Shown piece by piece: positions 5,586 to 61,600 of a DNA stretch of 64,000 bases (position 1 is its first letter; each line of letters begins with the position of its first letter). A program made the translations under genes and the position numbers. Origin of the DNA: Candidatus Levyibacteriota bacterium (GTDB lineage: Bacteria; Patescibacteriota; Microgenomatia; Levybacterales; UBA12049); contig JACOXU010000003.1 in NCBI GenBank assembly GCA_016182185.1, forward strand, positions 123,881 through 187,880. Reading direction: 5' to 3'. The notes below the pieces were generated by a model that worked only from the letters and a program-made list of their open reading frames with translations, had not been told where the DNA came from and did not search any database.

Positions 5586-5747
5586 ATGTCCTTATATCCT
5601 CCGCTTGGTTTGGTTTTGAAAACCAGAACATTTAATTCAAGCGTGTGTGATAGCAGTAAATATATCAAATTTCCTGCCAAAAAACAACACTCAAAATAGA
5701 ATTTCAATTGACAGTAAAGGTCATAAATAAGTATCATAAAATAATAG

Positions 5748-6671
5748 ATGAAGCCTTCGAAAAATCATTTTAGTTTTTATATATACATCATTTTTGGAAT
5801 GATGGTAATCGGTGCATCCACTTTGGTAGGCGGATTTTTCCCCGAGAAAAAAAGCACATCTTCGGACTTCTATCAAATAGATAATTCCAAACTTCCTCAA
5901 AATAGTTCAACAAATTCGGTAATTCAGCTCCATGCATTAAAATTTAAAAAAAATTTTGAAAGTATCACGCCTATTCTTTCTCCTTCATCCTCTCCAACAA
6001 ATCCCACAGTCATTCCTACTGCCATTCCAGTTTCTTGCACTGAAAGTCTCACACTGGATCTTTTACTTGATAAATCAGGTTCTATGGACAGTCTAACCCC
6101 AAGCGGGGTCTCAAAAATAAGAAGATTAAAAGAAGCAGTCCTGTTTCTCTCAAGCAAGCTTGGACCTAACACGATTATTGGAGTTCAATCTTTTAATAAA
6201 CGTGATTGTAATGTTTTCGAAAAATGTCCTTATGGAATAAAAGAAGATATACCTATTTCATATTATAAAGATGTCTCAAGTATTTTTTCTTCAAAAATAA
6301 ATGGTTTGGTAATTGGAGGTTCTACGCCTACTAACGACGGGCTGGTTTTTTCGCTGGGCAAACTAAGAGAAGCTCAAACAAAGTTTCCAGATAGAAAATT
6401 TAAATTTATTCTAATTTCAGATGGACAACCTGTTCCCTCTTCTCAGGATCCATATGTAAATAATCCAAATCCAGTTACTGAAATTAAGAATTTAGGGATT
6501 GAGATCTACACAATTGCTATTTATGATTCCACTCAAGCTAACACTCCTAATTCGCCTCTAAAAAGACTTATGCAGAAAATTGCCTCAAGTCCTGGAAATT
6601 TTTATGAAGCAGATACTGCAGATCAATTAAAAAATTTAATGGATGACATCTTTAAAAAAACTTGTACGTAG
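5748..6671 (+). CDS. membrane-anchored von Willebrand factor A (vWA) domain protein
   Basis: 307 aa; N-terminal TM helix ending in GGFFP, Ser/Pro linker, MIDAS motif DKSGSMD, conserved C-terminal SSPGNFYEA...C tail shared with 8101..9000. Confidence 0.65.
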   Translation: MKPSKNHFSFYIYIIFGMMVIGASTLVGGFFPEKKSTSSDFYQIDNSKLPQNSSTNSVIQLHALKFKKNFESITPILSPSSSPTNPTVIPTAIPVSCTESLTLDLLLDKSGSMDSLTPSGVSKIRRLKEAVLFLSSKLGPNTIIGVQSFNKRDCNVFEKCPYGIKEDIPISYYKDVSSIFSSKINGLVIGGSTPTNDGLVFSLGKLREAQTKFPDRKFKFILISDGQPVPSSQDPYVNNPNPVTEIKNLGIEIYTIAIYDSTQANTPNSPLKRLMQKIASSPGNFYEADTADQLKNLMDDIFKKTCT

Positions 6672-6711
6672 CTTGATTGACAAACCCAGAAAGCAACTGT
6701 AGGATTTAATT

Positions 6712-8085
6712 GTGGTTAAATTTAAAAAAAGCAAAGAGAAATTTTTATTTGGAAAAAGCTCAATTGGCATTTTACTTGTTCTTCTTATTGTTGCTTTCGG
6801 ACTTCTATTTTCAGGAATTTTATCTAAAAGAAAATTTCAGCAAAGCCCCATCACAGGAAACGTTTCAAGCTACTGCTGCGATACTGGAAGCGGTGACAAC
6901 TGCCAACCTCAAACAGGTCCGGGACAAAAACTTACTTTCCGAGGCGCTGAGTATGGACTGCTACGGACAAATACTATTCTTGCCGAGGGAAATGTTCATC
7001 TTAAAGATTCTGGTGAGAACCTCGATGGCAAACCTATCATATTAAACTCATCTGATACGCACATCATTCCGGATCAATTTGCCACTGCAGATTGCAGAAC
7101 CGAGCCTAAGGATAAATATTTAAAGGCTATTCCTCCGCCCCCAATTGTCGTCGGCACTCCGCAATCTGTACCTTATTGCACTTCAATTCCCAACGATGAA
7201 ATTATATTCGTCTGTAAGAAAAATTGCCATCCGGCAACATGTTCGCCGATTTGGGGTTCTGAGGTTACATGTTATGGGGATAAAGATTCTGAATATGACG
7301 CGTATTTCAGACTTTCGGATGTCTCTTCTCCCGGAATTCCTGATTTTATTAAAAATTGTGATGCATCAACCCTCCCAACCGGAACGTCCTCAACTGGTAA
7401 ACAAGTAATAGTAACTCCTACAGGACAAGATGCCAAAAAAAATCTACAGCTTGAAACCTTTAAAATAAAACTTGAGACTCCTCTTATTCCCTGGCTGTCT
7501 CCCTTTTGTAAACCTGCAATTTATTTGTACCCTGAAGAAGAAACAAACGTTCACGTGGGTATTGCACCAAAAGGAAAACTTTCCTACACGATTCCGCCTT
7601 ATCCCTTAAATGGCTGGAAGGTAACGGCAAGACCTGACGGAATGATTACCTATAATCAAGGACAATACGATTATCTTTATTACGAGGCGGAAATTCCAGA
7701 CTCTGAGATTAAAAAACCAACCGAAGGATTTATTGTAGGAATGAATAAAATTAAACCATTTCTCGAAAGCCTATTACCCAAATTGTCACTGAATGAAAAA
7801 GAATCCGAACAATTTGTAGATTACTGGGTTTCAGTACTGCCGGACTCCCCCTACTACTTCATCGGGGTTATCTCAAGAAAGACTTTGGATTCAATCGCTC
7901 CTCTTTCTTTTTCTCCAAAACCGGATACTATTATAAGAGTTACGCTCTACTTTGAGGCGCTTGGAAAAACAATAGACGTTAAAGAACCAATAATTAATCC
8001 CATCAAAAGGCAAGGGTTTACGGTTGTTGAATGGGGAGGAATTTTCAAGAAAGACATAAACCATAATTTTTCCTGTTTTGAGTAA
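6712..8085 (+). CDS. membrane-anchored Cys-rich extracellular protein with C-terminal LNEKES domain
   Basis: 457 aa; N-terminal TM, many Cys pairs, C-terminal about 250 aa homologous to C-terminus of 24403..26610 (YLY..E, LNEKES, RxGFTxVE motifs). Confidence 0.5.
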   Translation: MVKFKKSKEKFLFGKSSIGILLVLLIVAFGLLFSGILSKRKFQQSPITGNVSSYCCDTGSGDNCQPQTGPGQKLTFRGAEYGLLRTNTILAEGNVHLKDSGENLDGKPIILNSSDTHIIPDQFATADCRTEPKDKYLKAIPPPPIVVGTPQSVPYCTSIPNDEIIFVCKKNCHPATCSPIWGSEVTCYGDKDSEYDAYFRLSDVSSPGIPDFIKNCDASTLPTGTSSTGKQVIVTPTGQDAKKNLQLETFKIKLETPLIPWLSPFCKPAIYLYPEEETNVHVGIAPKGKLSYTIPPYPLNGWKVTARPDGMITYNQGQYDYLYYEAEIPDSEIKKPTEGFIVGMNKIKPFLESLLPKLSLNEKESEQFVDYWVSVLPDSPYYFIGVISRKTLDSIAPLSFSPKPDTIIRVTLYFEALGKTIDVKEPIINPIKRQGFTVVEWGGIFKKDINHNFSCFE

Positions 8086-8100
8086 AACATATTATAATAA

Positions 8101-9000
8101 ATGATTAAGAACCTGTCTAAAATTCTTAAAAATTCCCGCGGCGGCGCGGAGATTCTTATCCTGGTGATAATAATTCTCGGCAGTGTGCTTCTGACAGGAG
8201 GATTTTTCCCAAAAATTATTCCCCCTGATCCTAATGCTCCCAGATATACTGAAATTTCTGAAATTCAACCGGACAGTCAAAAAACGCTTCAGCTTAAAAC
8301 GATAAAATTTAAAGGTTGCACTTCAATTGTTGCGGTTGATTTCTTGGTAGACAGATCCGGTTCCATGAGATACGGCACGAAACTTGATAATTTGAAAAAT
8401 GCATTAAATGTTTTTGCCGGCAGTTTCCCTGAGGATGGAATAATTGGCATGCAGTCATATAGCGAGCCATCGTTTGGACCAACCGCTGATGTTCCGATTG
8501 ATTATTTTAAAAACGTAAAATCTCAATTTTTATCCGCTGTTTCCAGCTTATTTCCAAATGGCGGAACTTATTCAAAAGACGCATTTTCTTTTACAAAACC
8601 ATTACTTGATTCTGCCAGGGCCAAATTCCCCGATCATAAATTTTCCTTGATTTTTATATCAGATGGGGTGCCGGAGACATGGGAAGGAACGCGAAGATTG
8701 TGTCCCGACGGACCCGCAACTGCAGATCAAAGATATTGCGGACCAAAACCCGATAATCCAACTCAATGCAGATGTTTTGATACGAACCAGGATCCAACAT
8801 CAGTTGCCAATGAAATAAAACTCTCAGGTGTCAGAATTTTCACCATCGGTTATATCCATGACGAGGACCTTAAATTTCAAGATGATTTAAGAACGCTGAT
8901 GACCAACACTGCATCCTCTCCAACTGACTTCTATGAAGCGCCAATCGATAATCAGCTTACAGATATTCTCTCCCAAATCTCCCAAAAACTCTGTAATTAA
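8101..9000 (+). CDS. membrane-anchored vWA domain protein (paralog of 5748..6671)
   Basis: 299 aa; TM ending in GGFFP, MIDAS DRSGSM, Cys-rich insert, C-terminal SSPTDFYEA...C tail. Confidence 0.65.
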   Translation: MIKNLSKILKNSRGGAEILILVIIILGSVLLTGGFFPKIIPPDPNAPRYTEISEIQPDSQKTLQLKTIKFKGCTSIVAVDFLVDRSGSMRYGTKLDNLKNALNVFAGSFPEDGIIGMQSYSEPSFGPTADVPIDYFKNVKSQFLSAVSSLFPNGGTYSKDAFSFTKPLLDSARAKFPDHKFSLIFISDGVPETWEGTRRLCPDGPATADQRYCGPKPDNPTQCRCFDTNQDPTSVANEIKLSGVRIFTIGYIHDEDLKFQDDLRTLMTNTASSPTDFYEAPIDNQLTDILSQISQKLCN

Positions 9001-9006
9001 GTAGTT

Positions 9007-10065
9007 TTATTTCTTATTTGGCAACCCAATCATTGGCAGAATTCCAGCAGCAAAAGTTAATCCTGCCCCAAAGGTTGCAAATAGAAGAATATCATTTCTT
9101 TTTATTTTTCCTTTATCCCATGCCTCTCTTAGTGCTGTCGGAATAGTTGCAGTTGAAGTATTACCGTATCTATCGATGGTAATAATTACTTTACTTTCAG
9201 GAATATTTAAAACCCCTGCAGTCTCCTTCATGATCGACAAGTTTGCTTGGTGAGGTATGAAAAGAGTTACATTCTCAATAGATAGATTTGCTTCTTCAAG
9301 AACTCTCTTACTAACCTCAGCCATTCTGACTGGGGCTTGCTCTCCGATCTCTTTTCCGTCCATGTGAAGCGTGTGCCATCCCTTTGCCATGGTTTCTATC
9401 GTGCCTGGATTTTTGCTTCCTCCTGCTCGCATGCATAGGTTCTCAGCAAATTTTCCATCAACTCCACATCTTATTACAGGCTTTATATCCATTCCGTTAT
9501 CTGGCTCAACTAAATCCGCGATGGTTGCCCCTGCACCATCGCCAAATAGAGGAAACGAAAGTCTTTCTTCTCTATTAAGAGCAGGGCTTAAGATCTCAGA
9601 ACCGATTGCTACCTGAGGTCCTCCATCCCCATAGGGACTTGAAATGTCGGAAAAGATATTTTTCAAAGCCTGGGCCCAACCGGTGCATCCCGCACTTACG
9701 TCATATCCTCGAACACTGACGGGCAAACCCATACGATCCTGAATAATAGCCGCATCTGCAACTCCGTAGTAATCAGGAGAAGAGGTTCCTACGACAATTG
9801 ATTTTAATGCCTCTTTTTCAATCCCTGCCATATCCAATGCCTGATTTAAGGCTTCGACTGCCAAATCAGAGGTTGTTTGTTCTCCCGGAATCACCCACCG
9901 TCTTTCCTGTATTCCTACTATTCTTCTCATCAGTCTATCAGTAAGGCCAGGCTTTCCTCCGATCATTGGATCTACCATTTCATTAGTTACGACTCTTTGT
10001 GGAAAAGCTGACCCCACACCAATAATTGCCGGAATTTTTTCTTTCATATTTACGCATGCTAGCAA
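9007..10065 (-). CDS. 3-oxoacyl-ACP synthase III (FabH/KAS III)-like condensing enzyme
   Basis: 352 aa; Cys-His-Asn triad contexts SAGCTGW, IPHQAN, YGNTSTATIP typical of FabH/type III PKS fold. Confidence 0.7.
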   Translation of the reverse strand: MLACVNMKEKIPAIIGVGSAFPQRVVTNEMVDPMIGGKPGLTDRLMRRIVGIQERRWVIPGEQTTSDLAVEALNQALDMAGIEKEALKSIVVGTSSPDYYGVADAAIIQDRMGLPVSVRGYDVSAGCTGWAQALKNIFSDISSPYGDGGPQVAIGSEILSPALNREERLSFPLFGDGAGATIADLVEPDNGMDIKPVIRCGVDGKFAENLCMRAGGSKNPGTIETMAKGWHTLHMDGKEIGEQAPVRMAEVSKRVLEEANLSIENVTLFIPHQANLSIMKETAGVLNIPESKVIITIDRYGNTSTATIPTALREAWDKGKIKRNDILLFATFGAGLTFAAGILPMIGLPNKK

Positions 10066-10135
10066 AGAAGTTTTTTCTTGTCAATAAATATCCAATTGAC
10101 AAACAAAAATCCTCTGTTATACTAGCGACAACATC

Positions 10136-10969
10136 ATGACAACACAGGAAAAAGAACCACGAAGTCATCATTCTTACGAAGAATTCACCAATCGCCCCTT
10201 TTATATAGCGCTCAACAAAGAGACTATGAGACTTGCTCCAAGACCAGTAAGATATGCAGTTGATATTGGGACAGGAAAAACTGCGATGATTGATCAGATG
10301 TTTGATGAGAAAAAACTAACAATTGACTTCCAAATTAGAGGCTATGACCCTGATGAAGAAGCATTGGCCGGCGACCGAATCAAATATTACCATTATAGAG
10401 ATAAGATTCTTTTTATTGAAGCCTGGGCAGAAAACATTCCCTTACAAGATAGATGGTCTGAGCTGACAGTTTGCGCAAATGCTATTCATTTAACAGAGGT
10501 ACCAAAGACAATCAAGGAATTTGCAAGAATTACAGACGATGAAGGAACTCTTCTTATAAATACTGCGTACACACGCGACCATGCATATCCTGAAGCGTCA
10601 GAAGCCTCATGGGGAGCATTAGTTGTCAATGCAAGAATCGCCGCACGAAAGACTCACGGAATAACTGATATTCCCAAGCCTGTTCAGCTTCAAACTTATA
10701 AGCTTGAAGATTATGAAGCTATGCTAAAGGACGCTGGATTTGTTGTTGAAAAAGCCTATCCCAAGGTAGTACACATGAATCGGGAAGATCTGGAAGCAAT
10801 TTGCCATTATGATGAATTTGCCAAGGGCGCACTTCCTGGCGTAGAACTTGAGCTTGCCAAAGAATTACTTGTTGATGCAATTAAACCGACTCTGGAAAGA
10901 AGAGGTTCCGACAGTTTACCCCGAGGATGGGGTATCATAAAAGCTACAAGACTTCCTAGAGCTGCGTGA
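10136..10969 (+). CDS. putative class I SAM-dependent methyltransferase
   Basis: 277 aa; motif I-like AVDIGTGKTA, acidic post-I GYDPDEEAL, motif II-like ELTVCANAIHL; weak. Confidence 0.4.
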   Translation: MTTQEKEPRSHHSYEEFTNRPFYIALNKETMRLAPRPVRYAVDIGTGKTAMIDQMFDEKKLTIDFQIRGYDPDEEALAGDRIKYYHYRDKILFIEAWAENIPLQDRWSELTVCANAIHLTEVPKTIKEFARITDDEGTLLINTAYTRDHAYPEASEASWGALVVNARIAARKTHGITDIPKPVQLQTYKLEDYEAMLKDAGFVVEKAYPKVVHMNREDLEAICHYDEFAKGALPGVELELAKELLVDAIKPTLERRGSDSLPRGWGIIKATRLPRAA

Positions 10970-17073: not shown

Positions 17074-17610
17074 ATGGCAAAAGTAAAATCAGGTCATGGA
17101 AGATTAATTGCGCTTTTTGTTTTATTTGTGATACTTGCGGCAATTCCCCTGACTGTTAAGATATCTCAGGAACAACAGGAAATCCGCCAGCGTGCGGCAT
17201 ATGTTATTCCAACACCAGCTCCCAGATCATCTCCTCCCTGTTTTGTTCCCCAAGCAGTTCTTGACAAGCTGAAAAGATCGATGAATATAATTTCTCAAAA
17301 TTATGGCTATGGTGATGTAGACCAAGATGGAAGTATAACAACAAAGGATGCCCTACTGATTTTAAGATATGTAGCCAAGGCGACTACTCTTTCTCCTCTT
17401 CAGATAGAAGTAGCAGATGTGGATGGAGCACCGAATCTTTTATCATATGCCTCAAACGTTACCGCAGTTGATTCCCTTTTGATACAAAGATATATCGCTA
17501 GACTTCCTCTTCCTGACGGAAGATACAGTTTTCCGGTCTGTCCCAAACCGACGCCAACTCCTGCCCCTCTTATTTCTCCTTGGTCAGTTACTCCGATTCC
17601 TACTAATTAA
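17074..17610 (+). CDS. membrane-anchored dockerin-like repeat protein
   Basis: 178 aa; TM then SQEQQEIRQRAA motif shared with next gene; Ca-binding dockerin-like segment GDVDQDGSITTKDALLILRYV ... VDSLLIQRYI. Confidence 0.5.
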   Translation: MAKVKSGHGRLIALFVLFVILAAIPLTVKISQEQQEIRQRAAYVIPTPAPRSSPPCFVPQAVLDKLKRSMNIISQNYGYGDVDQDGSITTKDALLILRYVAKATTLSPLQIEVADVDGAPNLLSYASNVTAVDSLLIQRYIARLPLPDGRYSFPVCPKPTPTPAPLISPWSVTPIPTN

Positions 17611-17661: not shown

Positions 17662-20253
17662 ATGGGAAATCCTTTGCAGAAGGTAGTTGAACTTATTAAA
17701 ACATCAAGCCCCAAAAGGACAATAAGCATAATTGTCATCCTTATCATCGCCGCCGCCGTACCTCTCACTGTCATTGTTTCCCAACAACAGCAGGAAATCC
17801 GTCAGCGTGCAGCAGACTGTACAAACGGAATAATATCTGGAAGAGTCTTTTATGATAACAATCCCGAAAATGGCGTTTTTGACCCTACAGAACAAGGTTT
17901 CGATTTAATCGGACAACCAAATGTTGCCCAGGTGAACATGTGGAATAACGACACTGGAATAGCACTCAACAAAGATATAAGCGCCGGAAATGGTGTCTAT
18001 CAATTTACAGCCTCTACCAATAGAGATGGTTACCGCCTAAGATTTACTGCTCCCACGGGGTACAGGATCACAACGCCCCAAAATATTTCTCCATGGCAAG
18101 TAAGTCCGAGATCTGACGGGCGCTGGCAGGCAGATTACCCTGCCTTAAGACTCCCTCCATGTGCGCAAATATACGATTTTGGAATTACCAACGGTCAACC
18201 TCCTACGCCAACTGCTACACCTCCTCCAATCTCAAGCTGTGGTACAAATGGAAATGTTGTTTTTGACAATAAATCTTCGAGTCTCACAACTACAGCGGGC
18301 GCACCCACGACTCTTACGTGGAACCATACTGTGGGCTCTGGAAATAGTCGGCTATTGATTGTCGGGGTTAATCTTCGCACGTCTTCGGGAGGAAATATCA
18401 CTTCTGTTAGAGCCAACAATCAAAACTTGACTCGAATAGGAAATGTAATAAGTGTAGGCGGAACCTCAAGTCCGACAAGTAACTCCATGTGGTACTTACT
18501 TAATCCTCCCAGCGGTTTAGTGTCAATTTCGGTCACGGCAGACAGAAGTCTGACTATCTCAGCCGGTGCTTCAAGCTGGTCCAATGTAGACCCGAATAAT
18601 CCTTTGGGCAACTCAGTCGCAAATACAGGCAACAACTCCAATCCCAATCTATCAATAGCAGGACCTGCTTGCGGTGTTGTAGTTGATAATCTTGCCACAC
18701 CTATCGGCGACTGTCCTCAAACTCCATCTCCTGATTCGCTTCAGACCCTGCTTTGGAGCGTGAATGTGCCTGGAGATAATCTCTCTGATCAGGGAGGAAA
18801 GGGTCAAAGCGCAGGCAGTTATAAACAATCAGCTACTCAGACAACTATGTGGTGGAATAATGCTTGCAGCGGAGCTTGGGCTTTAAAAGCCGTTCCGGTA
18901 GCGGCATTTGAACCCACTCCCACACCAACAAATATTCCGACACCGACACCTACTCTAGTTGCTGGTGCCAAACCTCCCCCTTGTTTTGTCCCTGCTTCGC
19001 TTCTAAGTCAACTCGGGCTCCCAACTACTGCTGTAAGAGGCTATGGAGATGTTGATTTGGATGGTGATGTTGACATGACTGATGCTACCAAAATATTAAA
19101 TTTTGTTGCTCTAATTCCACCGCTTCCTTCACCTCTTCAAATTGAAGTGGCTGATGTTGATTCAACTTGGGGTGTTCTTTCCAATGCGTCAAGCATAACC
19201 TCAGTTGATTCACTCATGGTTCAAAGATATTTACAAAACTTACCCATACCATCACAATATAATCCACCGAACTCAAATACAATAAGTCTGCCGGTTTGTT
19301 TAGGCCAGCCTACAATCACGCCAACCCAACCGCCAACCCCTATTCCAACTACTATCAGGACGCCAACTCCAACCACTACGCCTCAGTGTACATCCGGTCA
19401 AACATGCACTGCATGTACTGCACCTGCTAATACTTGTAATGGTTCAGGCACTCAAAGCTGTACTCTGACAACAACCTCTACTGGATCTACAAACTGCCAG
19501 CAAGTTACGACTCATAATATTTCCTGTACCGGCGCGCCGGCCAACTGCACAAATGGTAATGTTTGTGTAAGTAACGCCTGTGTTGCTCCAACCGGAGTGC
19601 CCACGGCAACTGTTGTACCCACCCTGACGAAGCCTCCAGGAGTTACTGTTACAGAAGCGCCAAGAATAAGCCCGACCGCTGTTCCGACTATTCCAACCGG
19701 TAATACAGTCTTTGCCCTAAACATTGGACTTGATGGAATTGGAACTGTCGGAGATAATGTCAATCCGAATAATTCGAGTGGCTCCAATAAAAATCCATTG
19801 AGAACATCAAGAAGCGTAACTATTCAGGTGTTTGATAACAACAACACCGAGGTAGCAAATAAGTCCGGCACGCTTACCTATCAAACAGGAAGCGGCAGAT
19901 TTACCGGAAATGTGGATATGGATAGGCTTGCAAGCGCAAATTACAATGTCAAAGTAAAATCTCCAGGCTATCTAAGACGTCTTATTCCTGGAATTCAAAA
20001 TGTGACTGCCGGTCAGGCGTTTAATCTCCCGAATGAAAACTTGGTTACGGGCGATATCAACGGGGACAATGCAATTAATATTCTGGACTACAATATATTT
20101 ATAAGCTGTTCTATCTTCAGTAAAGACGGACAAGCAGTCTGCAACCAGAACCCTGACTACAAAACGCTCTCTGACCTTGATGACAACGGGGCAACTGATC
20201 AGTTTGATTACAATCTGTTTGTCAGAGAACTTTCAGTCCAAAACGGAGATTGA
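17662..20253 (+). CDS. large cell-surface protein with SdrD-B-like domain, Cys-rich module and two dockerin-like modules
   Basis: 863 aa; N-terminal TM+SQQQQEIRQRAAD; GRVFYDNNPENGVFD (Cna/SdrD B-like); Thr/Pro linkers; dockerin-like GDVDLDGDVDMTDATKILNFV...VDSLMVQRYL and C-terminal GDINGDNAINILDYNIF...DLDDNGATDQFDYNLF; about 180-aa domain shared with the giant protein at 58607..64000. Confidence 0.55.
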   Translation: MGNPLQKVVELIKTSSPKRTISIIVILIIAAAVPLTVIVSQQQQEIRQRAADCTNGIISGRVFYDNNPENGVFDPTEQGFDLIGQPNVAQVNMWNNDTGIALNKDISAGNGVYQFTASTNRDGYRLRFTAPTGYRITTPQNISPWQVSPRSDGRWQADYPALRLPPCAQIYDFGITNGQPPTPTATPPPISSCGTNGNVVFDNKSSSLTTTAGAPTTLTWNHTVGSGNSRLLIVGVNLRTSSGGNITSVRANNQNLTRIGNVISVGGTSSPTSNSMWYLLNPPSGLVSISVTADRSLTISAGASSWSNVDPNNPLGNSVANTGNNSNPNLSIAGPACGVVVDNLATPIGDCPQTPSPDSLQTLLWSVNVPGDNLSDQGGKGQSAGSYKQSATQTTMWWNNACSGAWALKAVPVAAFEPTPTPTNIPTPTPTLVAGAKPPPCFVPASLLSQLGLPTTAVRGYGDVDLDGDVDMTDATKILNFVALIPPLPSPLQIEVADVDSTWGVLSNASSITSVDSLMVQRYLQNLPIPSQYNPPNSNTISLPVCLGQPTITPTQPPTPIPTTIRTPTPTTTPQCTSGQTCTACTAPANTCNGSGTQSCTLTTTSTGSTNCQQVTTHNISCTGAPANCTNGNVCVSNACVAPTGVPTATVVPTLTKPPGVTVTEAPRISPTAVPTIPTGNTVFALNIGLDGIGTVGDNVNPNNSSGSNKNPLRTSRSVTIQVFDNNNTEVANKSGTLTYQTGSGRFTGNVDMDRLASANYNVKVKSPGYLRRLIPGIQNVTAGQAFNLPNENLVTGDINGDNAINILDYNIFISCSIFSKDGQAVCNQNPDYKTLSDLDDNGATDQFDYNLFVRELSVQNGD

Positions 20254-20330: not shown

Positions 20331-20981
20331 ATGTCCAGACGAACAATTATATTAATCATAGCACTTGTCGGTATAACAGGAATCTTACTTGCTATTGCCC
20401 TGACTCAAAAAAAGGGTCCGGGACCTTCTGTGACTAAACCTTCGCCTCAGGTTCAGGTGCCTTACGCTCATACGTCGCTTGAGATAAGCAGTAATCCCGT
20501 TTCCCAGGCAACTTCTTCGGGATCATCCACCTATTCCCTGGATGTGAATATTAACACGGAAACAGATAAGGTGACTGCAGTCCAGCTTGAATTATCTTTC
20601 GACCCCAAGGCAATCTCAAATGTAGATGTTAAACCAGGCACTTTCTTTAAAAATCCTGCCCAACTTATCAAAAGAGTAAATGCTAAGGACGGAACAATCT
20701 CATATGCGCTAGGAATAAATCCCGGAGAAAATGGAATACAAGGAAGTGGAGTCGTTGCCGAAATCTCATATCGGGAAATTGGCCAATCCGGAACTTACAC
20801 CCAGATTAATTTTCTACCCAAAACATTGGTAAGCGCTGAGGGAACGGATAAATCTGTTCTTAAAAAATCAATCGGATCACTAATTATGCTCGGGGGAGCA
20901 AGTCCTGCAAATTCGACTAAGCCCGCCACTTCAGGTGCTATTCCTCAAACGACAAGAACTCAGCCTAATCCTTTTCAATAA
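20331..20981 (+). CDS. membrane-anchored cohesin-like domain protein
   Basis: 216 aa; TM anchor; LELSFDPKAISNVDVKPGTFF...DGTISYAL...GSGVVAEISYREIG pattern resembles cohesin type-I beta-sandwich. Confidence 0.45.
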   Translation: MSRRTIILIIALVGITGILLAIALTQKKGPGPSVTKPSPQVQVPYAHTSLEISSNPVSQATSSGSSTYSLDVNINTETDKVTAVQLELSFDPKAISNVDVKPGTFFKNPAQLIKRVNAKDGTISYALGINPGENGIQGSGVVAEISYREIGQSGTYTQINFLPKTLVSAEGTDKSVLKKSIGSLIMLGGASPANSTKPATSGAIPQTTRTQPNPFQ

Positions 20982-24402: not shown

Positions 24403-26610
24403 TTATCTCACCATGAAGCTTATCTCAACTGCAGTGAATCCTTTTCGTTCAATTTTTTCTATAACAGGCGGTATGTAAGAATAACTGGGGCTATTATCGA
24501 GATTTTCTATATAAAAAACTATATTTCGATAGGTGTCAGGAGATGGAGCTATTACGAGCGGGAGGATTTTTTTAGATGTCGCATCATCAAACAAAGATAT
24601 AAAAATATAAGAAGAAACTGCTCTCGTTTTTACAAATTCCAGGGTATCGGCAGATTCTTTCTCGTTTAAGCCCAACCGGCTAGATATTTGCTCAATTAAA
24701 TCCTGGACTTTTTCTTTCCTGACTACATATCCCTTAACTGGTTTATCAACATTAATCGCAGGCTCATAATCGAATTTAAAAGAAGAAACTCTTTCATTTC
24801 CGCTTGTAAAAGTACCATCACCATTTAGAATAACATTTAATCCCAAAGCTGGACTATAATTAGTATTTAAAGGATAAATGGCCGTAGTAGAATAAACAGA
24901 AACGCTTTTCCCTTCCTGTCCATACAGATACAATGGGCTGTCAGAGCATGATCCTGCCAAGTCTATCCAGGCATCGTGAAAACACTGTTGAAATTCAGGA
25001 TCTTCGGGATAATCAGGATCCCACACGCGGTTTTTCATGATATCCAATGGGTAATCTTTTCCGAGAATTTCATTGCATTGCGCAGCAGCTCTCGCGTAGC
25101 AAGCATTGGGATTTATGACATGCTTAGGAGCTGAACTTGGTGCCGGCTGAGGAGGCACAGGATCAGATTGCTGAACCAGTCTCTTGGGAGCAAGGGATGG
25201 TTTAAGTTCAAATGTTTGTAGTTGGATTTGGTTTCTTAATTGATCTGTTCCTAGAGAAAGAAGCTTAGACGAAAAATAACCCTGCGGTTTCAGATCAATC
25301 ATTTGCACGAGGCCTTTATCAAGATTCACCGTTGTTCTACTTTGAGCTGGTATATCCAGTAAATACATTGAATTAATTAATTGACTGTACTTCCCGCCAA
25401 GATTTCCCAGTTCTGAATCAGAGGTTGTTTTATCTACAGCAAGATACTTATTTTCAGAAACTAATGTAAGTATGTCCGTCAATTTTGTCCCAGTCGCAAT
25501 GTTATCTAAATTAATTTTTTGAGAGTTATTTGTGCTGACATTATAGAAATACGTGCCAGACAAAGAATCGTTTTTTGAAATTAATCTATAAACAATATTT
25601 CCGGTGAGCCTATCCCAGTTGGGATCTGAAAATATATCGTCGTTACTAGTTGCAAGAAGAGTCTTTTTCTGCCTTGTGGCAAGATCGAAGATTTCAAGCG
25701 TGTTGGATGACAAAATCGCCCTTCTGAATCCGTCAGTCTCCGAAGTTCCAGAACCTTTACGTCCATCGTAGCCTGCAAAAAGCAGTTTCTTGCCGTCCGG
25801 CGATACTTCAGGCTGGGTACTTATCATCCCATTGGTAAGTGAGGGAATATCCTGTTTATTCGTGCCTGTAAAATTTGAAACCGAGACACCGTAACCCCAG
25901 CCAGCACCTGAATTTGGGAGAAATTTATCAGTAAATAAATCTCCGCTGTCAGTTATGGCAATCGGATACGCCAGAGTAACTCCAAGTCCTGAAGTTTCAT
26001 CGTAGATAAGATTTTTTTGTGCTGGATTTGATGTATCAAGTGTATATACCCTTGATTTCCCCCCAAAGAGTGCGCCTCCCTCAGATGGGCTTACTTCCCA
26101 AACTGCCAAATATTTGGAGTTTGGGGAAACGACATAATCATCAATCCCATACCCGCTATCTGCGGTTATAACAGTTGTTTCTGTCTTAGTATCAAATGCT
26201 CTAATTACGACTTGTTTCCCGTAGTCATTTGCATCGGTATCTTTAATATAGCTAATTCTTTTCGAATCTAAAATTTTGACATGTTTTACATTCGATGGAA
26301 GCTCAACAAGTATACCGCTTTGACTTGTTGATAGGTCCAAAACTGAAATTGTTGATTTGTCTTTACTCCAAGATCCATAGATAAATGAAACTGGAGCGAT
26401 GTATGCGGTTTGTGTTTTATTTTTGTCGTCTTGCTGCTGTGGAGGATTATTTGCCTTATCGTTTTGGCTTTTTATAAATATGCCTCCTGCCAAAGAAAAA
26501 ACAACCAGAAAAAAGATTAAAATCCATTTGGCGCTATCAGAACCCAGACCAAAAAACCTTTTGACTTGAGGTGCTTCAGAAGGTAAATTTTGGGCAGTAT
26601 TTTCTTCCAT
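24403..26610 (-). CDS. large membrane-anchored extracellular protein, beta-propeller-like repeats plus C-terminal LNEKES domain
   Basis: 735 aa; N-terminal TM; TolB/WD-like SPDGKKL, SPNSKYLAVW repeats; C-terminal 250 aa homologous to 6712..8085. Confidence 0.5.
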   Translation of the reverse strand: MEENTAQNLPSEAPQVKRFFGLGSDSAKWILIFFLVVFSLAGGIFIKSQNDKANNPPQQQDDKNKTQTAYIAPVSFIYGSWSKDKSTISVLDLSTSQSGILVELPSNVKHVKILDSKRISYIKDTDANDYGKQVVIRAFDTKTETTVITADSGYGIDDYVVSPNSKYLAVWEVSPSEGGALFGGKSRVYTLDTSNPAQKNLIYDETSGLGVTLAYPIAITDSGDLFTDKFLPNSGAGWGYGVSVSNFTGTNKQDIPSLTNGMISTQPEVSPDGKKLLFAGYDGRKGSGTSETDGFRRAILSSNTLEIFDLATRQKKTLLATSNDDIFSDPNWDRLTGNIVYRLISKNDSLSGTYFYNVSTNNSQKINLDNIATGTKLTDILTLVSENKYLAVDKTTSDSELGNLGGKYSQLINSMYLLDIPAQSRTTVNLDKGLVQMIDLKPQGYFSSKLLSLGTDQLRNQIQLQTFELKPSLAPKRLVQQSDPVPPQPAPSSAPKHVINPNACYARAAAQCNEILGKDYPLDIMKNRVWDPDYPEDPEFQQCFHDAWIDLAGSCSDSPLYLYGQEGKSVSVYSTTAIYPLNTNYSPALGLNVILNGDGTFTSGNERVSSFKFDYEPAINVDKPVKGYVVRKEKVQDLIEQISSRLGLNEKESADTLEFVKTRAVSSYIFISLFDDATSKKILPLVIAPSPDTYRNIVFYIENLDNSPSYSYIPPVIEKIERKGFTAVEISFMVR

Positions 26611-26887
26611 TACTTAAATAATAGTGGAAAAATATTCGTCGGTCAAGAGGTGGTAGGAAACTATTGAATAGAATTTATCTACCCTCAGTATAACGGATAG
26701 ATCAAGCGCTATTCATTCTCCCGCCAAAGGCGGGATTCGCTTGTGGCCAATACACTTTCTCGCAAAATTTCTACTCTTAACCTAATTAGAAATTAGAAAA
26801 TTAAAAATTAGAAATTCCACTCCGCGTCAGCGGAGGGGCTTAGGTGTCTTCTCTCAATCCAATACTGAGTAAAATCGAAGTATTAGA

Positions 26888-28340
<1,453 letters not shown>

Positions 28341-28678
28341 TTCCTACCACTTCCTGACCGAGAAACCCTGAGTTTATCGAAGGGTTTCATTTCAAGAAGT
28401 AAATCCAAAATGTGTGCTGATTCACTTTTTAAAGTGCAACTTTTATATAAGATCTTAAGACAATCCACCTTGCCTTACCACTCGGCTTTAGATTCCATTC
28501 GAATACGCCTCGTGGAGCAGCTTTTGGCGGATAATGAATTTTTAATTTTCAAATGAGCATTAAAAATCCCGCCAAAGGCGGGTTCTATATTCCTTTTTTA
28601 GGAACCAGACTTTCGGCGAAAGGTCTTACATATCTTCAAATTTGCTTACCCAGTTAAAGGTTTACAAACAGTAAATCT

Positions 28679-28706
28679 ATTATAGTTGAATATTAATCTT
28701 TGTCAA
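28679..28706 (-). promoter_or_regulatory. consensus sigma70-type promoter (TTGACA-16-TATAAT) reading into 16S leader
   Basis: minus strand -35 TTGACA at 28701..28706 and -10 TATAAT at 28679..28684, about 340 nt upstream of 16S 5-prime end. Confidence 0.5.
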
Positions 28707-29229
28707 GAATCAGTTTGTCTTTCATTGACTGTTAAATTCGATCTTGCCTTATTCAAAAATTCTCTGACTTGATCACTTGACCATCTTTCATATTTTAACC
28801 CTCTTGGTTTTCTCATGCTGTGGTTCGTCTTTCTGACGCTAAAATCCTTAAAAGCAGGCTGTTCTTCGCGCGACAATCTGTTCCAAACTTGCCTGAGAAA
28901 ACTTATATTATGTAAAGATGTGCTTGCCCGTGTTTCATTGTAGCTATCAGCGATTTCCCTTAGATTACTCGGTCCAAAAACCCAAGCAATTCCTATATTT
29001 AATGTTTTTTCAGATATGCCTTCGTACAAAATCCTTTTTCGATAAGTTTTTGAACCAAGTACTGTCTCTGTTGATGACGCTTGGCCGGACTCATCTCTTT
29101 TTCCACCATAGCGTGGATTATAACATAAACATCGACTAAATCAGCTTTCCAGCAGTAAAATGGTCCAGGGAAAAGGATGGCGAACCTTTTTAATTGTCGA
29201 TTGTGAATTGTTAGTTGTAAATTGTTCAA
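28703..29229 (-). pseudogene. truncated/frameshifted tyrosine recombinase (integrase) N-terminal fragment
   Basis: two overlapping ORFs (28999..29229, 28703..29029); core-binding-domain-like TRASTSLHNISFLRQVWNRL and linker RKPRGLKYERWSSDQVREFL; catalytic domain absent. Confidence 0.35.
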
Positions 29230-29734
29230 ACCTCTTTGCCGTCCAGTGGTGGATGTGTTCGATGTCGTTTCCTAAACGAGTAATGTTTTTGCCTCTTAAA
29301 AAATTTGCCCCCATAAAAAACGGCTCATTGGGAACCGAAAGCAGAATATATTTTTTTGAAACTCGAATTAGTTCTTTTAAACCCTTTCTGGGATCTTCCA
29401 AATGCTCTAAGACTTCTGTCGCCATAACTAAATCGAATGCGTTGTCTTGATATTTAAGTTTATAGATATCTCCCTGATTTAAAATAAGATGTGGATGGGT
29501 TTTTTTACCAAGCTCTATGGCTGTTTCCAAAAAATCTACTCCTTCAAGTTTTTTGCCAATCTTATTTTCGTAAAGCTTGTTAAGAGTAAATCCCTCACCG
29601 CATCCCACATCCAAGACAGAGTTAATTTTTAAATCTTTGATAACGCTGATCAGATTCTTATAAAAATTATCTATAAGAAACTTTTGAAGAGGATTTTGAC
29701 TTGTGTGTTTTCTGAAATTATCTGTTTTTTCCAT
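29141..29734 (-). CDS. class I SAM-dependent methyltransferase
   Basis: 197 aa; motif I VLDVGCGEGFTL, motif II DLVMATEVLEHL. Confidence 0.7.
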   Translation of the reverse strand: MEKTDNFRKHTSQNPLQKFLIDNFYKNLISVIKDLKINSVLDVGCGEGFTLNKLYENKIGKKLEGVDFLETAIELGKKTHPHLILNQGDIYKLKYQDNAFDLVMATEVLEHLEDPRKGLKELIRVSKKYILLSVPNEPFFMGANFLRGKNITRLGNDIEHIHHWTAKRFEQFTTNNSQSTIKKVRHPFPWTILLLES

Positions 29735-58606: not shown

Positions 58607-61600
58607 CTACCGTTCGTCGACTATCCACCAATCAAACTTGATATCTCGACTGTAGCGTCTTTCAATCTCAACTGTGAAGCCTGAGCCGGCTGCTTTATTC
58701 GTAACCACGAGCGGCTGGCCTCCGGTAAGGCTTGTGGCAGTCACAAATATTCTGGATTTATTGGTCACGGCAGCCGTATCAACTACCACACTCGTATCTC
58801 CTGCGAGCAGGGTCCCCGAACCCAGCGAAGCCGCGTTTGACGCGGTGGTATCGATATTGACTTTCTTGGCTGTGATTTCACCTTCTGTTTTTATATTTCC
58901 ATTGGTATCAATCGTGACTTTGCCTGAGAGTATATTTATCCCACCCAAGCCATTGCTCTGAAGGTTCAAATCTCCAATACTATTTATAGATGCTCCCCCA
59001 TCTCCATTGTTAAGCGATGAGTCAAGTCCGTGAATTGACAAGAGCCCTGCTGCGATGTTACCGGTCACTCCCAGATCTGCAGTCGTCGTTCTGCCCAGCA
59101 CCATCAAGTTGCCTGATATTGTCGCGCTCTCTGCGTTGATATTGGTCAGATCAGGTAGAAGCGAAGCCGCGTTTGACGCGGTTGAGACACCCAATACTGC
59201 TCCATTCAGCATGCTCTGCAGGAAGGCAGATTCTGATGCCAGCTGATCCACTCTTTGTGAGAGACTATTGGTATTAAGCTCTAAGCCGGTTACTCTATTT
59301 TGCATATCCGCGAACAACGGATCACTACTCAAATCAAATGTCCCCGAAGATGAAGCTGACGATACGGGATCGTTACTTGGGTTGATCAGTCCCAGCAACT
59401 GGCTCGCCTCCTCCGCACTAAACTGCGCATATGGATTAGTCACGCTCCCATCTGCTGCAATTTGAATCCTCGGATCTCTCCAGGAAAGGTTTATAAATAC
59501 TGAAATTTTACCAATAATATCCGGATCTGAGTTGCTGTAGCCTTCAATAGCAATCCCTATAACCATTCCCGGCTTTGTTGCCTTCATGGCTACACCGGGC
59601 TTACTTGATGCAGTAAGAGAATCACCCGGCATTATTTCTCCATTTTCCGCAGATACTTTTACAGGAACACGACCAGAAAGAGCAACAGCGACTTCTTTTA
59701 CTGATCGGGGGTCTGTTTTCTGACCATGCCCACCAAGCAACACACCTGGTTTTTCTGAGATGACACCAAGCATTGCAGAATTTGTGGATGACTTTTGAAC
59801 AAATTCTGTTTCGTAGTCATGTTCAAAAGGATTATCAGGTGGGGTATCAGGTTTGGGCTGATAATTTAAACTTACAACGTCCCCAGCTTCTATTGAATCA
59901 TCAAGCGTCGGGAAATTTTCAGCTATATCATCAATCGTAAAGCTTGAACTAATACCATATACAGTACCTGCAGTTCTTGAAGCATCAATACAGTCGTCTG
60001 CAGTATCTAGAGAATCATCTGCGCAGATAGCTCCATAGGCTAGTATACCATTGCCGCCTATATTAGTAGTCACATTAGCTCCGGCTGCTCCGACAAGCAA
60101 ATCCCCCCCGCTTCCTCCTGTGACAGTAAATATAGTAGCCCCCGAGGCTGAGGCGGTAAAAATATCTAGACCAGATGTTTGGTTTATAACTGCTGCTGCC
60201 TTACCGCCTGATGCTCCGGAAAGATTAAGCATCGAACCAAGACCCGAGCTTGTGACGTTAAGTACGGCCCCTGTTGAAAGCCCATTACTCTGGGTAAGAG
60301 AAAGAACATTTGCAGTATCGGTACAGCCGCCAGTGGTAATACTGCAATTGGATGTCAGATTTGCCAATGAGCCAGATAGACTAACAGATCCAACTGGTAT
60401 CATAGAGACTCCATTGTCTACCCAATTGCCTGACCCCGTATTAGACCACGAATGAGTTGGATTCTCTTGCGTGCTGTCTGAATAAGCTACGGATGGATTA
60501 AGAAATCCGCCCTGTCTTTTTGTATTAACCCCCGTAGTCGTGAGTGTTCCGCTAACCGCTGAGGCTACTATATCTATTGCCGTTCTGCCCAAAGAGTTTG
60601 TGATGGCATTATTAGGCGTAGTACTAGAACCAGTTGAAGAGGTACAACCTGCAAAAGCGCTTCCTACAGTTTGATTAATGTTAAAGTAGCTGGCAGTAAT
60701 AACATAACCACGATCACTTCCACTTCCATTGGTGAAGTTTACACTTGTTGTATTAGCGCCTGAAGATGAAGAATCCCCCATTGCTATAGCAAAAATATCC
60801 GTAGCTACACTAGTGCCATTTGTAGCCTGACTACAGACTCTCGTAGCGGAACTTCCGCCGTACGTTACAGTATTAATTGTTTCAGAATTTGCATTCTGAT
60901 ATGCAATGGCTATTACCACCATACGGTTGCTTCCTGCTCCCAAAGTATGGCTGTTAGTTATTGTAGTATTAGTAAGAGTCCAACTACTTATAACAGAGGA
61001 GTCATAAACACTTGTATTTATGCTTAAATTTCGATTTAGATTTAGCAAATTACCGGAGTCAGTATTGATAGCTGTATATGTAGCGGTATGATCTCCATTG
61101 ATAAGATTGGCAGAAGTCAAATTGGCAGAAGTGGAAAGGACATTTAGGCCCTTACCCGTAGTTAGGGAATTTGCGGCGATTGAGAACGCGTCTCCTGTAG
61201 TTGCAGAAGAGGTTGCAAAGACAGACCCCCAATTATTTATAGTAAAGACTGTGCTTCCCGATTTTGATGCTGTGAAAATATCTGCATTTGGTGAAAGGTC
61301 TGTTTGATTTACTCTAAGAGCTGCGTTATTCCCGCTGATGCCGGATATGTCTAATAATCCTATTGGACTTGTATTTCCGATACCTACTCTGCCAATATTA
61401 TTTATAACAAATTTTGTAGAGCCTGAAGAAGAGGCGGATAGAATATAATCATTTGTATTAGTTCCAGTTTGGTTGAGAATCATCAAAGCGTTGTGTCCGT
61501 TGTTGCCTGATAGATCAAGGAGTCCAAGTGGGCTTGTGTTGCCGACCCCGACCCTACCAAGATTGTTGATGACAAATTTGGTAACACCAGAGGATGAGGC

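What the first reader, a model, noticed from the sequence alone, without database searches (positions are those of the whole stretch)
5748..9000. Paralogous membrane-anchored vWA (MIDAS) proteins flanking a Cys-rich secreted protein; conserved GGFFP post-TM motif
ORFs 5748..6671 and 8101..9000 both have an N-terminal TM helix ending in L(V/T)GGFFP(E/K), a vWA domain with an intact MIDAS D-x-S-G-S motif, and a conserved C-terminal SSP(G/T)(N/D)FYEA...C tail. Between them sits a 457-aa TM-anchored, Cys-rich protein. This is a three-gene extracellular module of unknown function. vWA/MIDAS proteins typically mediate metal-dependent protein-protein adhesion. The shared GGFFP motif at the membrane boundary may be a processing or sorting signal.
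Basis: seen in the sequence. Interest (0 to 1): 0.6.

Follow-up and report, generated by a model that had tools for sequence, protein, structure and literature searches.

The report
Variable surface-protein island with vWA adhesins
Two related metal-dependent adhesion-type (vWA) proteins and a cysteine-rich protein of unknown function sit together in a Levybacteria genome as part of a fast-changing island of exported proteins; all share a ~70-residue N-terminal leader, and the reported 'GGFFP' is only a local, non-conserved spelling of one part of it.

Summary
The sequence facts are correct. Three same-strand ORFs (A 5748-6671, M 6712-8085, B 8101-9000) exist. A and B are paralogs (32% identity, E=4e-29) with an N-terminal hydrophobic helix, a vWA domain and a complete MIDAS. 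M has 12 Cys and matches no known family.

- **GGFFP:** the exact motif occurs in 2 of 48 related leaders, only in this window. GG is kept in 79% and GGxxP in 48%.
- **Trio:** the vWA-M-vWA order recurs in 3 of 31 distinct loci, all in relatives.
- **What is conserved:** a ~70-aa leader (basic N-terminus, helix, GG-phi-phi-P, ~29-aa spacer, LQLxT-phi-K-F). It is shared by vWA proteins, proteins with M's C-terminal domain ('Mc') and small Pro/Thr-rich proteins, all clustered between rpsB and SHMT in Levybacteria.
- **Turnover:** two near-identical strains keep the first 45 codons but swap vWA cargo for Cys-rich+Mc cargo.
- **Mc:** a very large unannotated family (6,438 cluster representatives).

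The vWA fold is closest to pilus-tip adhesins (SpaC, Mfa5, PilB). My best reading is a variable repertoire of surface-displayed, MIDAS-dependent binding modules, probably for attachment. The functions of Mc and of the LQL motif are unknown. Interest is moderate.

The parts
5708..5737 (+). Sigma-70-like promoter match (TTGACA-18-TATCAT, 11/12) just upstream of gene A
   Evidence: This is a consensus match only; the total number of such sites in the region is not above the shuffled expectation.
5748..6671 (+). Gene A: leader + Pro/Thr-rich linker + vWA domain (307 aa), A-type (no Cys-rich insert)
   Evidence: vWA HMM covers aa 97-307; leader HMM covers aa 8-68, E=1e-15
5829..5843 (+). GGFFP (aa 28-32) at the end of A's hydrophobic helix
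5922..5945 (+). A's copy of the conserved linear motif (IQLHALKF, aa 59-66)
6069..6083 (+). A's MIDAS loop 1, D-K-S-G-S (aa 108-112)
6712..8085 (+). Gene M (457 aa): split leader + Cys-rich Mn domain + Mc domain
6856..7377 (+). Mn: Cys-rich, mostly beta N-terminal domain (aa ~49-222) with the CCDxGxGxxC motif, inserted between the helix and the LQL motif
   Evidence: Mn HMM covers aa 49-222, E=6e-63
7444..7467 (+). M's LQLETFKI motif (aa 245-252) in a low-confidence linker
7495..8079 (+). Mc: C-terminal alpha/beta domain (aa ~262-456), bracketed by C266 and C455; a large family with no annotation
8101..9000 (+). Gene B: leader + vWA domain (299 aa), B-type (with Cys-rich insert); the constant member of the island
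8197..8211 (+). GGFFP (aa 33-37) at the end of B's hydrophobic helix
8287..8310 (+). B's LQLKTIKF motif (aa 63-70); Q64 is invariant; pLDDT below 50
8350..8364 (+). B's MIDAS loop 1, D-R-S-G-S (aa 84-88); T156 and D188 complete the site
8701..8775 (+). B-type four-Cys insert (C201, C213, C223, C225) immediately after the MIDAS 'SDG' strand; absent from A
24403..26610 (-). Second Mc-domain protein of the window (735 aa): helix ending ...AGGIFIK, a large unannotated insert, IQLQTFELK, then Mc

Best explanation
The three genes are the local state of a lineage-specific, rapidly reshuffled island of exported cell-surface proteins in Candidatus Levybacteria (Patescibacteria). The island sits in the conserved slot between rpsB-tsf-frr-rseP and SHMT-DHFR-thyA. 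Every member is built on one ~70-residue N-terminal leader: a basic N-terminus (often [K/R]-G), a 17-20-residue hydrophobic helix ending in G-G-phi-phi-(P/S), a ~29-residue low-complexity spacer, and the linear motif LQLxT-phi-K-F. A 'cargo' follows. The cargo is either a single vWA domain with a complete MIDAS (A and B), or the Mc domain, sometimes with an extra domain such as Mn inserted between the helix and the LQL motif (as in M), or a short Pro/Thr-rich tail. The helix most likely acts as a Sec signal-anchor that tethers the cargo outside the single membrane. The vWA domains would then bind an acidic group of a ligand through a MIDAS-held Mg2+/Mn2+, as pilus-tip adhesins do. The four-Cys insert next to the MIDAS in B, which A lacks, would give the two paralogs different specificities. 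The most probable role is attachment, to a host cell or to partner surface proteins. Shown: the architecture, the paralogy, the MIDAS conservation, the shared leader, the variable synteny, the strain-level cargo swap and the fold similarity. Inferred: the membrane topology, the disulfides, metal and ligand binding, the adhesion role, and any A-M-B interaction.
For: vWA and MIDAS: Pfam VWA passes its cutoff for both proteins. D84, S86, S88, T156 and D188 are invariant in 35 sequences. The AF2 vWA model is confident (pLDDT 83.5 overall, mostly above 90 in the domain). The best solved matches are the SpaC pilus-tip adhesin (E=4e-12), the Mfa5 tip protein, CMG2/TEM8, the S. sanguinis PilB minor pilin and integrin I domains. 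Shared leader: an HMM built only from vWA N-termini hits PT-rich proteins (E~1e-12), short Mc proteins (E 1e-10 to 7e-16) and M-type proteins in two pieces, helix at the N-terminus and LQL just before Mc. The helix-to-LQL spacer is tightly constrained at 27-42 residues, median 29. Island and variability: among 31 distinct loci, 18 have an Mc or Mn gene, 13 a leader-only gene and 7 two vWA genes; rpsB and SHMT flank the island repeatedly. L003 and L004 are 96-97% identical upstream and through codon 45, unrelated across the cargo, and identical again from the stop codon. The A ortholog in L010 carries an in-frame TAA. Export: 216 of 234 Mc-family proteins have an N-terminal hydrophobic helix. 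Invariant Cys pairs bracket both cargo types: C73/C298 in vWA, and C266/C455 in Mc (233 and 231 of 234). Patescibacteria depend on surface adhesins and pili for epibiotic growth (PMC10633639, read).
Against: There is no experimental or expression data. With only ~35-60 residues between helix and domain, the vWA domains would sit close to the membrane, which is unlike long-reach adhesins. The functions of M (Mn and Mc) and of the LQL motif are unknown: there are no Pfam, NCBIfam, PDB-sequence or Foldseek-PDB matches. Anchoring versus cleavage of the leader was not resolved. The enrichment of Mc genes next to vWA genes was not tested against a whole-genome background. Many genome titles are uninformative ('uncultured Gammaproteobacteria' labels on bulk-assembled MAGs), so the statement on taxonomic restriction rests on the named records and on the small hit list.
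Confidence: 0.55

Rival explanations
1. The hydrophobic N-terminus is a cleavable Sec signal peptide of the long, Gram-positive type. The conserved [V/T/A]-x-G just before the phi-phi-P would be the signal peptidase I site (the -3/-1 rule). A, M and B would then be released or wall-associated, not membrane-anchored, and GGFFP would be an ordinary cleavage region.
For: The nearly invariant residue at the helix end is a small one (G34 at least 90%), usually with V, T, A, L or I two positions before it. 38 of 48 leaders have GG there. The N-terminus is basic, as in signal peptides.
Against: The Gly follows directly after a 17-20-residue hydrophobic stretch without a polar c-region, which fits a signal-anchor better (sequence; inference from general signal-peptide rules). 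Another exported protein in the same window has a more classical site (...PTRA|F, ORF 39276). No signal-peptide predictor could be run.
Confidence: 0.25
2. The leader is a divergent class III (prepilin-like) signal. Cleavage after the [K/R]-G that precedes the helix would let the helix insert into a type IV filament, displaying vWA or Mc cargo at a pilus, as in the modular pilin PilB of Streptococcus sanguinis.
For: [K/R/Q]-G lies directly before the hydrophobic core in 23 of 48 leaders, and any G in 34 of 48. Some leaders have Glu two residues later, for example B's SRGGAEILIL, and RRRGFVEILL and QKGGIEFVLL in M homologs. PilB, a vWA-bearing pilin, is among the structural matches (PMC8179133). 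Type IV pili are central to Patescibacteria attachment (PMC10633639).
Against: None of the 48 leaders has a canonical G-[FMLIVAS]-[ST]-L-[IL]-E motif, and where a Glu is present it is at +3, not +5. NCBIfam gives no N-terminal match at all for A, M or B at E<=1; the only hits are weak vWA-region matches. The AF2 helix is only residues 15-31, followed by a Pro-rich coil, with no ~50-residue alpha1 helix and no pilin head, whereas PilB has a 180-residue pilin module. There are no pilus-machinery or prepilin-peptidase genes in the 64-kb window.
Confidence: 0.08
3. A, M and B form an obligatory three-subunit extracellular complex, a dedicated 'module', in which the two MIDAS sites clamp acidic residues of M.
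For: The genes are on the same strand with 40-nt and 15-nt gaps and a promoter-like site upstream of A. The same order is found in L010 and, with a short Mc protein, in L012. vWA and Mc genes are neighbours in 18 of 31 loci.
Against: The trio order is present in only 3 of 31 loci. B-like genes occur alone (L001, L005, L022, L024, L033, L035). A is interrupted by a stop codon in the closest relative. A is replaced by an Mc protein in a sister strain. The M family is vastly more widespread than the vWA family (6,438 Mc cluster representatives against 35 word-indexed vWA hits; different search tools) and lacks vWA neighbours elsewhere. No complex prediction could be run.
Confidence: 0.1
4. The genes encode BatA/BatB-like membrane vWA proteins (aerotolerance or MoxR-associated systems) or a TadG-like pseudopilin.
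For: The architecture is a TM helix plus a vWA domain. There is a weak NCBIfam hit to VWA_BatA_Lepto (E=0.005).
Against: The score is 16 bits against a cutoff of 380. No MoxR, DUF58 or TPR neighbours are seen in any locus. There are no Tad or TadE Pfam hits.
Confidence: 0.02

Closest known systems
vWA tip adhesins of sortase-assembled and type V pili (SpaC of L. rhamnosus GG, RrgA, EbpA, Mfa5)
   Same: They have a vWA fold with a complete MIDAS and are the best Foldseek matches (6m48 E=4e-12, 6tnj E=2e-11). They carry extra structure next to the MIDAS, the 'arms' in SpaC/RrgA/PilB (PMC8179133), comparable in position to B's four-Cys insert after the SDG strand. MIDAS-dependent adhesion is documented for this class (PMC3419518, PMC7835359, listed).
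   Different: Here the proteins are single-domain and ~300 aa long, anchored or exported by an N-terminal helix. They have no C-terminal LPXTG sorting signal, no stalk or isopeptide domains, and no sortase or pilin genes nearby. Sequence identity is only ~14-20%.
PilB of Streptococcus sanguinis, a bimodular type IV pilin with a vWA module (PMC8179133)
   Same: Both have an N-terminal hydrophobic targeting segment followed by a MIDAS-containing vWA cargo. Both embody the idea of one N-terminal module carrying interchangeable functional modules. PilB is a structural match (7b7p E=8e-9).
   Different: PilB has a canonical class III signal and a 180-residue pilin fold. A and B have neither.
VWF A1/A3-type disulfide-clasped A domains (my own knowledge of VWF: one disulfide links the N- and C-termini of the A1 and A3 domains)
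   Same: An invariant Cys lies immediately before strand beta1 (C73) and another at the end of the last helix (C298). The equivalent pair in A is C97/C306.
   Different: The organism is a bacterium with no identified Dsb system in this window.
BatA/BatB membrane vWA proteins
   Same: An N-terminal TM helix plus a vWA domain.
   Different: They fail the NCBIfam cutoff (16 vs 380 bits), and the partner genes (MoxR ATPase, DUF58, BatC/D) are absent from all loci examined.
Variable surface-protein loci with a conserved leader and variable mature part (for example Mycoplasma Vlp/Vsa lipoprotein families; my own knowledge, not tested here)
   Same: A conserved N-terminal export segment, variable exposed cargo, clustering at one locus, and differences between closely related strains.
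   Different: There is no lipobox: the first Cys is at residue 73 in B and 97 in A. No repeats or invertible promoters were seen. The variation is by gene or cargo replacement, not phase switching, as far as the data show.

Membership tests
von Willebrand factor type A domain (Pfam PF00092) | Profile match above the curated gathering score | tested here: met
   A scores 43 bits and B 39.1 bits against a cutoff of 23.8.
von Willebrand factor type A domain (Pfam PF00092) | Complete MIDAS: DxSxS, plus Thr, plus Asp on three separate loops | tested here: met
   D84, S86, S88, T156 and D188 are invariant in 35 sequences including A.
von Willebrand factor type A domain (Pfam PF00092) | Alpha/beta Rossmann-like fold | tested here: met
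   The AF2 model shows alternating strands and helices with pLDDT mostly above 90 over residues 72-299. 342 PDB matches have E<=1e-3, and the top 50 listed are almost all vWA or I domains.
von Willebrand factor type A domain (Pfam PF00092) | Divalent-cation binding and ligand binding at the MIDAS | not testable with these tools
   This needs purified protein (thermal shift with Mg2+/Mn2+, MIDAS mutants).
Sortase-dependent pilus tip adhesins (SpaC/RrgA class) | C-terminal LPXTG-type cell-wall sorting signal | tested here: not met
   A ends ...FKKTCT and B ends ...QKLCN. Neither has an LPXTG motif or a C-terminal hydrophobic tail.
Sortase-dependent pilus tip adhesins (SpaC/RrgA class) | Pilin and sortase genes in the same locus | tested here: not met
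   There are none within the island in the window or in any of the 31 loci. The only sortase gene seen (L005) lies ~3.5 kb upstream of a lone vWA gene with unrelated genes in between.
Type IV (modular) pilins | Class III signal: leader ending in Gly, then ~21 hydrophobic residues, usually with Glu at +5 | tested here: not met
   No canonical motif in any of 48 leaders. [KRQ]-G lies before the core in 23 of 48, and an acidic residue follows within 4 positions in 9; in the examples read it is at +1 to +3, not +5. There are no N-terminal NCBIfam hits for A, M or B at E<=1.
Type IV (modular) pilins | Pilin fold: a long N-terminal helix packed on a beta-sheet | tested here: not met
   The AF2 helix covers residues 15-31 only, followed by a Pro-rich coil leading into the vWA domain.
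BatA/BatB | NCBIfam model score above the cutoff | tested here: not met
   16 bits (A) and 11.5 bits (B) against a cutoff of 380.
BatA/BatB | Operon with a MoxR-type ATPase, DUF58 and BatC/D | tested here: not met
   These are absent from the window and from the related loci.
Bacterial lipoproteins | Lipobox L-x-x-C at the end of the signal peptide | tested here: not met
   The first Cys is at residue 97 in A, 55 in M and 73 in B, well beyond the helix.
Known anti-phage defence or phage protein families | Match to PADLOC-DB or PHROGs profiles | tested here: not met
   No hits at E<=0.01 for A, M, B or the 735-aa Mc protein.

The most novel reading that the evidence does not exclude
The ~70-residue leader, and in particular the invariant-Gln linear motif LQLxT-phi-K-F held ~29 residues from the helix end or directly in front of the cargo domain, is a previously undescribed sorting, processing or docking signal of Patescibacteria. 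A dedicated partner (a protease, a transpeptidase-like enzyme or a surface scaffold) would recognise it and mark a large exported proteome, including the >6,000-cluster Mc family. The rpsB-SHMT island would then be a cassette-swapping repertoire that sets host-attachment specificity in Levybacteria.
Probability: 0.2. Interest if true: 0.7.

Novelty: new variant of a known kind. Interest (0 to 1): 0.42.

Why it matters
Patescibacteria are ultrasmall and mostly uncultivated, and they are thought to live attached to host cells. Which surface proteins mediate and specify that attachment is largely unknown outside a few Saccharibacteria (PMC10633639). This locus offers three things. First, it gives concrete, testable candidates: small MIDAS-bearing vWA domains that could be expressed and screened for ligands. 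Second, it is an example of strain-level cargo replacement behind a conserved leader, which is the pattern expected for host-range or immune-evasion determinants. Third, it points to a very large exported domain family (Mc) and a conserved linear motif (LQLxT-phi-K-F) that current databases do not describe. If the motif proves to be a sorting or processing signal, it would help define the exported proteome of a major bacterial radiation. If not, the finding is an ordinary lineage-specific set of vWA surface proteins.

Tried and rejected
1. Identifying M by sequence: Pfam, NCBIfam, PADLOC and PHROGs gave no hits. A profile of 55 homologs against PDB sequences gave only noise (E=0.6).
3. Function from domain fusions of Mc: ankyrin repeats (P0156, three Mc copies) and CarboxypepD_reg/SdrD_B (P0278) only indicate an interaction or extracellular context. 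Eight other long members had no Pfam domain.
4. Gene conversion as the source of the shared GGFFP: rejected. A and B share only a 15-nt match at the motif and no extended DNA identity.
5. GG-phi-phi as a generic feature of this genome's exported proteins: rejected. Other N-terminal helices in the window end differently.
6. LQL as a structural strand of the cargo: unlikely. Its pLDDT is below 60 in both models. It precedes unrelated cargos. It is absent from the Mc repeats of P0156.
7. Prepilin, BatA/B, TadG, lipoprotein and LPXTG readings were each tested and not met (see the membership table).
8. Literature searches for a described CPR vWA module or leader motif found nothing specific.
9. I ran no further search on protein A, because A-type orthologs and other insert-less vWA proteins were already recovered in the fetched loci.


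Full report
**1. Observation**

The window comes from a Candidatus Levybacteria MAG (Patescibacteria). Proteins B and M are 100% identical to NCBI records from that taxon, on a 190-kb contig. They are separated by 40 and 15 nt and flanked by rpsB-tsf-frr-rseP and a FabH-like gene on the opposite strand.

A and B are paralogs, 32% identical with E=4e-29, and both exceed the Pfam VWA gathering score. GGFFP occurs exactly twice in all six frames of the window, each time closing the N-terminal hydrophobic segment of A or B. M has 12 Cys and a single N-terminal helix. The sequence observation is therefore confirmed.

**2. What is conserved in the vWA proteins**

A search of 5.8 billion proteins returned only 35 relatives of B. 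The records that carry a name are Levybacteria or unclassified Patescibacteria. In the 35-sequence alignment the invariant positions are:
- the five MIDAS residues (D84, S86, S88, T156, D188);
- Q64;
- a QDP motif (Q230, D231, P232; D231 at least 90%);
- the C-terminal Cys, C298. C73, just before the first strand, is at least 90% conserved.

Its terminal Cys most likely pairs with C73, as in the VWF A1 and A3 domains (inference from my own knowledge). B-type proteins carry a four-Cys insert directly after the MIDAS 'SDG' strand. A and a few other members lack it. This places variable, disulfide-stapled structure beside the metal site, much like the 'arms' of RrgA, SpaC and PilB (PMC8179133).

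The AF2 model of B is confident for residues 72-299. Its best solved matches are bacterial pilus-tip adhesins (SpaC, Mfa5, PilB) and metazoan receptor or integrin I domains.

**3. GGFFP is a local spelling of a degenerate helix end**

In the alignment only one Gly (G34) reaches 90%. The closest orthologs read GGSFS (A, L010) and GGLFP (B, L010). Across 48 contiguous leaders from distinct loci:
- GG is present in 38;
- GGxxP in 23;
- exact GGFFP in 2, both from this window.

A and B share no extended DNA identity, so the identical pentapeptide is not a gene-conversion tract. The ending is not generic for this genome, because other exported proteins in the window end their helices differently. 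It is shared by a specific set of proteins, described next.

**4. A shared leader across different cargos**

I built an HMM from the first ~72 residues of the vWA proteins alone. It also recognises the following:
- small Pro/Thr-rich proteins (E~1e-12);
- short proteins whose only other domain is M's C-terminal domain, 'Mc' (E 1e-10 to 7e-16);
- M-type proteins and the window's 735-aa Mc protein, each in two pieces. The helix matches at the N-terminus and the second half matches just upstream of Mc. For the 735-aa protein the match is marginal (E≈0.07).

The best-conserved leader element is not GGFFP but LQLxT-phi-K-F. Q64 is invariant in the vWA family. L245, Q246, L247 and F250 are at least 90% conserved in 55 M homologs from across Patescibacteria. 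In short forms the motif lies 27-42 residues (median 29) after the helix-end Gly. In long forms an extra domain is inserted before it: Mn in M, and an unannotated ~400-residue region in the 694-735-aa proteins. In Mc-family proteins it sits 20-24 residues before the domain's first Cys.

Both AF2 models leave the motif unfolded, with pLDDT below 60. It precedes unrelated cargos, and it is absent from the three Mc repeats of the ankyrin protein P0156. It therefore behaves like a conserved linear motif, not a strand of the cargo domain. What recognises it is unknown.

**5. The middle protein**

M has two confidently modelled domains:
- **Mn**, residues ~53-222: Cys-rich, with seven invariant Cys and a CCDxGxGxxC motif.
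- **Mc**, residues ~268-445: bracketed by C266 and C455.

Neither domain matches Pfam, NCBIfam, PDB sequences or PDB folds by Foldseek. The more sensitive fold libraries were unavailable.

Mc alone finds 6,438 cluster representatives at E<=1e-3 and 5,319 at E<=1e-10 among 1.84 billion. It is nearly always at the extreme C-terminus of proteins of 200-1,120 aa. Of 234 family members examined, 216 have an N-terminal helix, 233 have the Cys before KPA(I/V)YLYP, and 231 have a Cys in the last eight residues. Mc is thus a major unannotated exported domain family of Patescibacteria with some members elsewhere. Its many invariant aromatic and charged residues suggest a binding or catalytic site, but I could not assign one.

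**6. Synteny**

I combined look-ups of individual homologs with a scan of species-representative genomes, then classified neighbours with the four HMMs. This gave 31 distinct vWA-anchored loci.
- The slot between rpsB-tsf and SHMT-DHFR is used again and again.
- 18 loci hold an Mc or Mn gene within 6 kb, usually adjacent and on the same strand.
- 13 loci hold a leader-only small gene.
- 7 loci hold two vWA genes.
- The vWA-Mc-vWA order is seen only in the window, in L010 (B 82% identical) and in L012 (with a short Mc protein).
- Several B-like genes stand alone.

M homologs in other Patescibacteria (L006-L009) have tandem Mc paralogs, ClpB-like ATPases or S8 peptidases as neighbours, but no vWA genes.

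Two observations show active turnover. The A ortholog in L010 has an in-frame TAA where the window has GAA. Sister strains L003 and L004 are 96-97% identical upstream and through codon 45 (the helix and GGLLPS), unrelated across the rest of the gene (vWA versus Cys-rich+Mc), and identical again from the stop codon onwards. That is a clean cargo replacement behind a conserved leader.

**7. Mechanism**

The best-supported reading is a variable repertoire of exported surface proteins. The leader targets them to, and probably tethers them in, the single membrane. The vWA cargos act as MIDAS-dependent binding modules. A and B differ in the loop structure beside the metal site and so probably in ligand.

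Attachment to a host or to partner envelope proteins is the most likely role, given the structural relatives and the documented dependence of epibiotic Patescibacteria on adhesins and pili (PMC10633639). The short tether argues against long-range adhesion and leaves room for a role in organising a surface complex with Mc proteins.

The rivals are:
- a cleavable signal peptide with GG as the SPase I site (plausible, unresolved);
- a divergent prepilin-like signal (its canonical features were tested and not met);
- an obligatory A-M-B complex (contradicted by the variable synteny);
- BatA/B- or TadG-like systems (failed cutoffs, absent partner genes).

No defence-system or phage-family match exists.

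**8. Novelty and verdict**

The vWA proteins themselves are new members of a well-known kind. The arrangement is a new variant of the familiar theme of variable surface-protein loci: one leader carrying interchangeable vWA, Mc or PT-rich cargos, concentrated in a conserved genomic slot and swapped between strains. I found no description of the leader, the LQL motif or the Mc domain in the family libraries or in the literature searches I ran.

The broader idea of an extracellular module with a shared N-terminal signal survives in modified form. Interest is moderate. It would rise substantially if the LQL motif proved to be a true sorting or processing signal.

Noticed in passing
window 17074-17610 (+), 17662-20253 (+), 20331-20981 (+): There is a cohesin-dockerin set. 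Two proteins carry type I dockerin domains (178 aa; 863 aa, which also has SdrD_B), and a small membrane-anchored protein carries a cohesin domain. The two dockerin proteins share a different conserved leader...AA(I/V)PLTV..SQ(E/Q)QQEIRQRAA. This suggests a second leader class and a cellulosome-like surface assembly in this Levybacterium.
   Followed up: partly
window 24403-26610 (-): A second Mc-domain protein (735 aa): helix ending ...SLAGGIFIK, a ~400-residue region with no Pfam match, IQLQTFELK, a Pro-rich linker, then Mc. Similar 694- and 731-aa proteins sit next to the vWA gene in L013.
   Followed up: partly
L003 4367-5512 vs L004 311-1243: Sister strains from the same groundwater site have the same promoter region and first 45 codons but unrelated cargo (Cys-rich+Mc versus vWA). 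DNA identity resumes exactly at the stop codon. This looks like cassette replacement by recombination.
   Followed up: yes
L010 2674-3603: The ortholog of gene A (67% identity) is interrupted by a single in-frame TAA where the window has GAA. It is a pseudogene or a sequencing error.
   Followed up: partly
window 26887-28338 (-): A complete 16S rRNA gene (Rfam SSU_rRNA_bacteria, 1340 bits). In the 26400-29300 region scanned, no other rRNA gene was detected.
   Followed up: partly
window 58607-63790 (-): A very large ORF (1,727 aa) with no Pfam match at E<=0.01. It may be another giant surface protein; I did not examine it further.
   Followed up: no
P0156 (from; not in the window): A 1,120-aa protein with a classical signal peptide, ankyrin repeats and three tandem Mc domains that lack both the Cys clasp and the LQL motif. 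The Mc fold therefore exists outside the CPR-type leader context.
   Followed up: partly
L007 and L008 (M homologs in other Patescibacteria): M homologs there sit next to an ~800-aa ClpB-like AAA+ protein (AAA_2, ClpB_D2-small) and a large S8 peptidase, near nusA-infB, in two different genomes. This may be a conserved neighbourhood that was not explored.
   Followed up: no
window 9007-10969: A FabH-like ketoacyl-ACP synthase III gene and a class I methyltransferase gene lie between gene B and SHMT. They are absent from this slot in L001, although a methyltransferase recurs in L003, L004 and L010.
   Followed up: no
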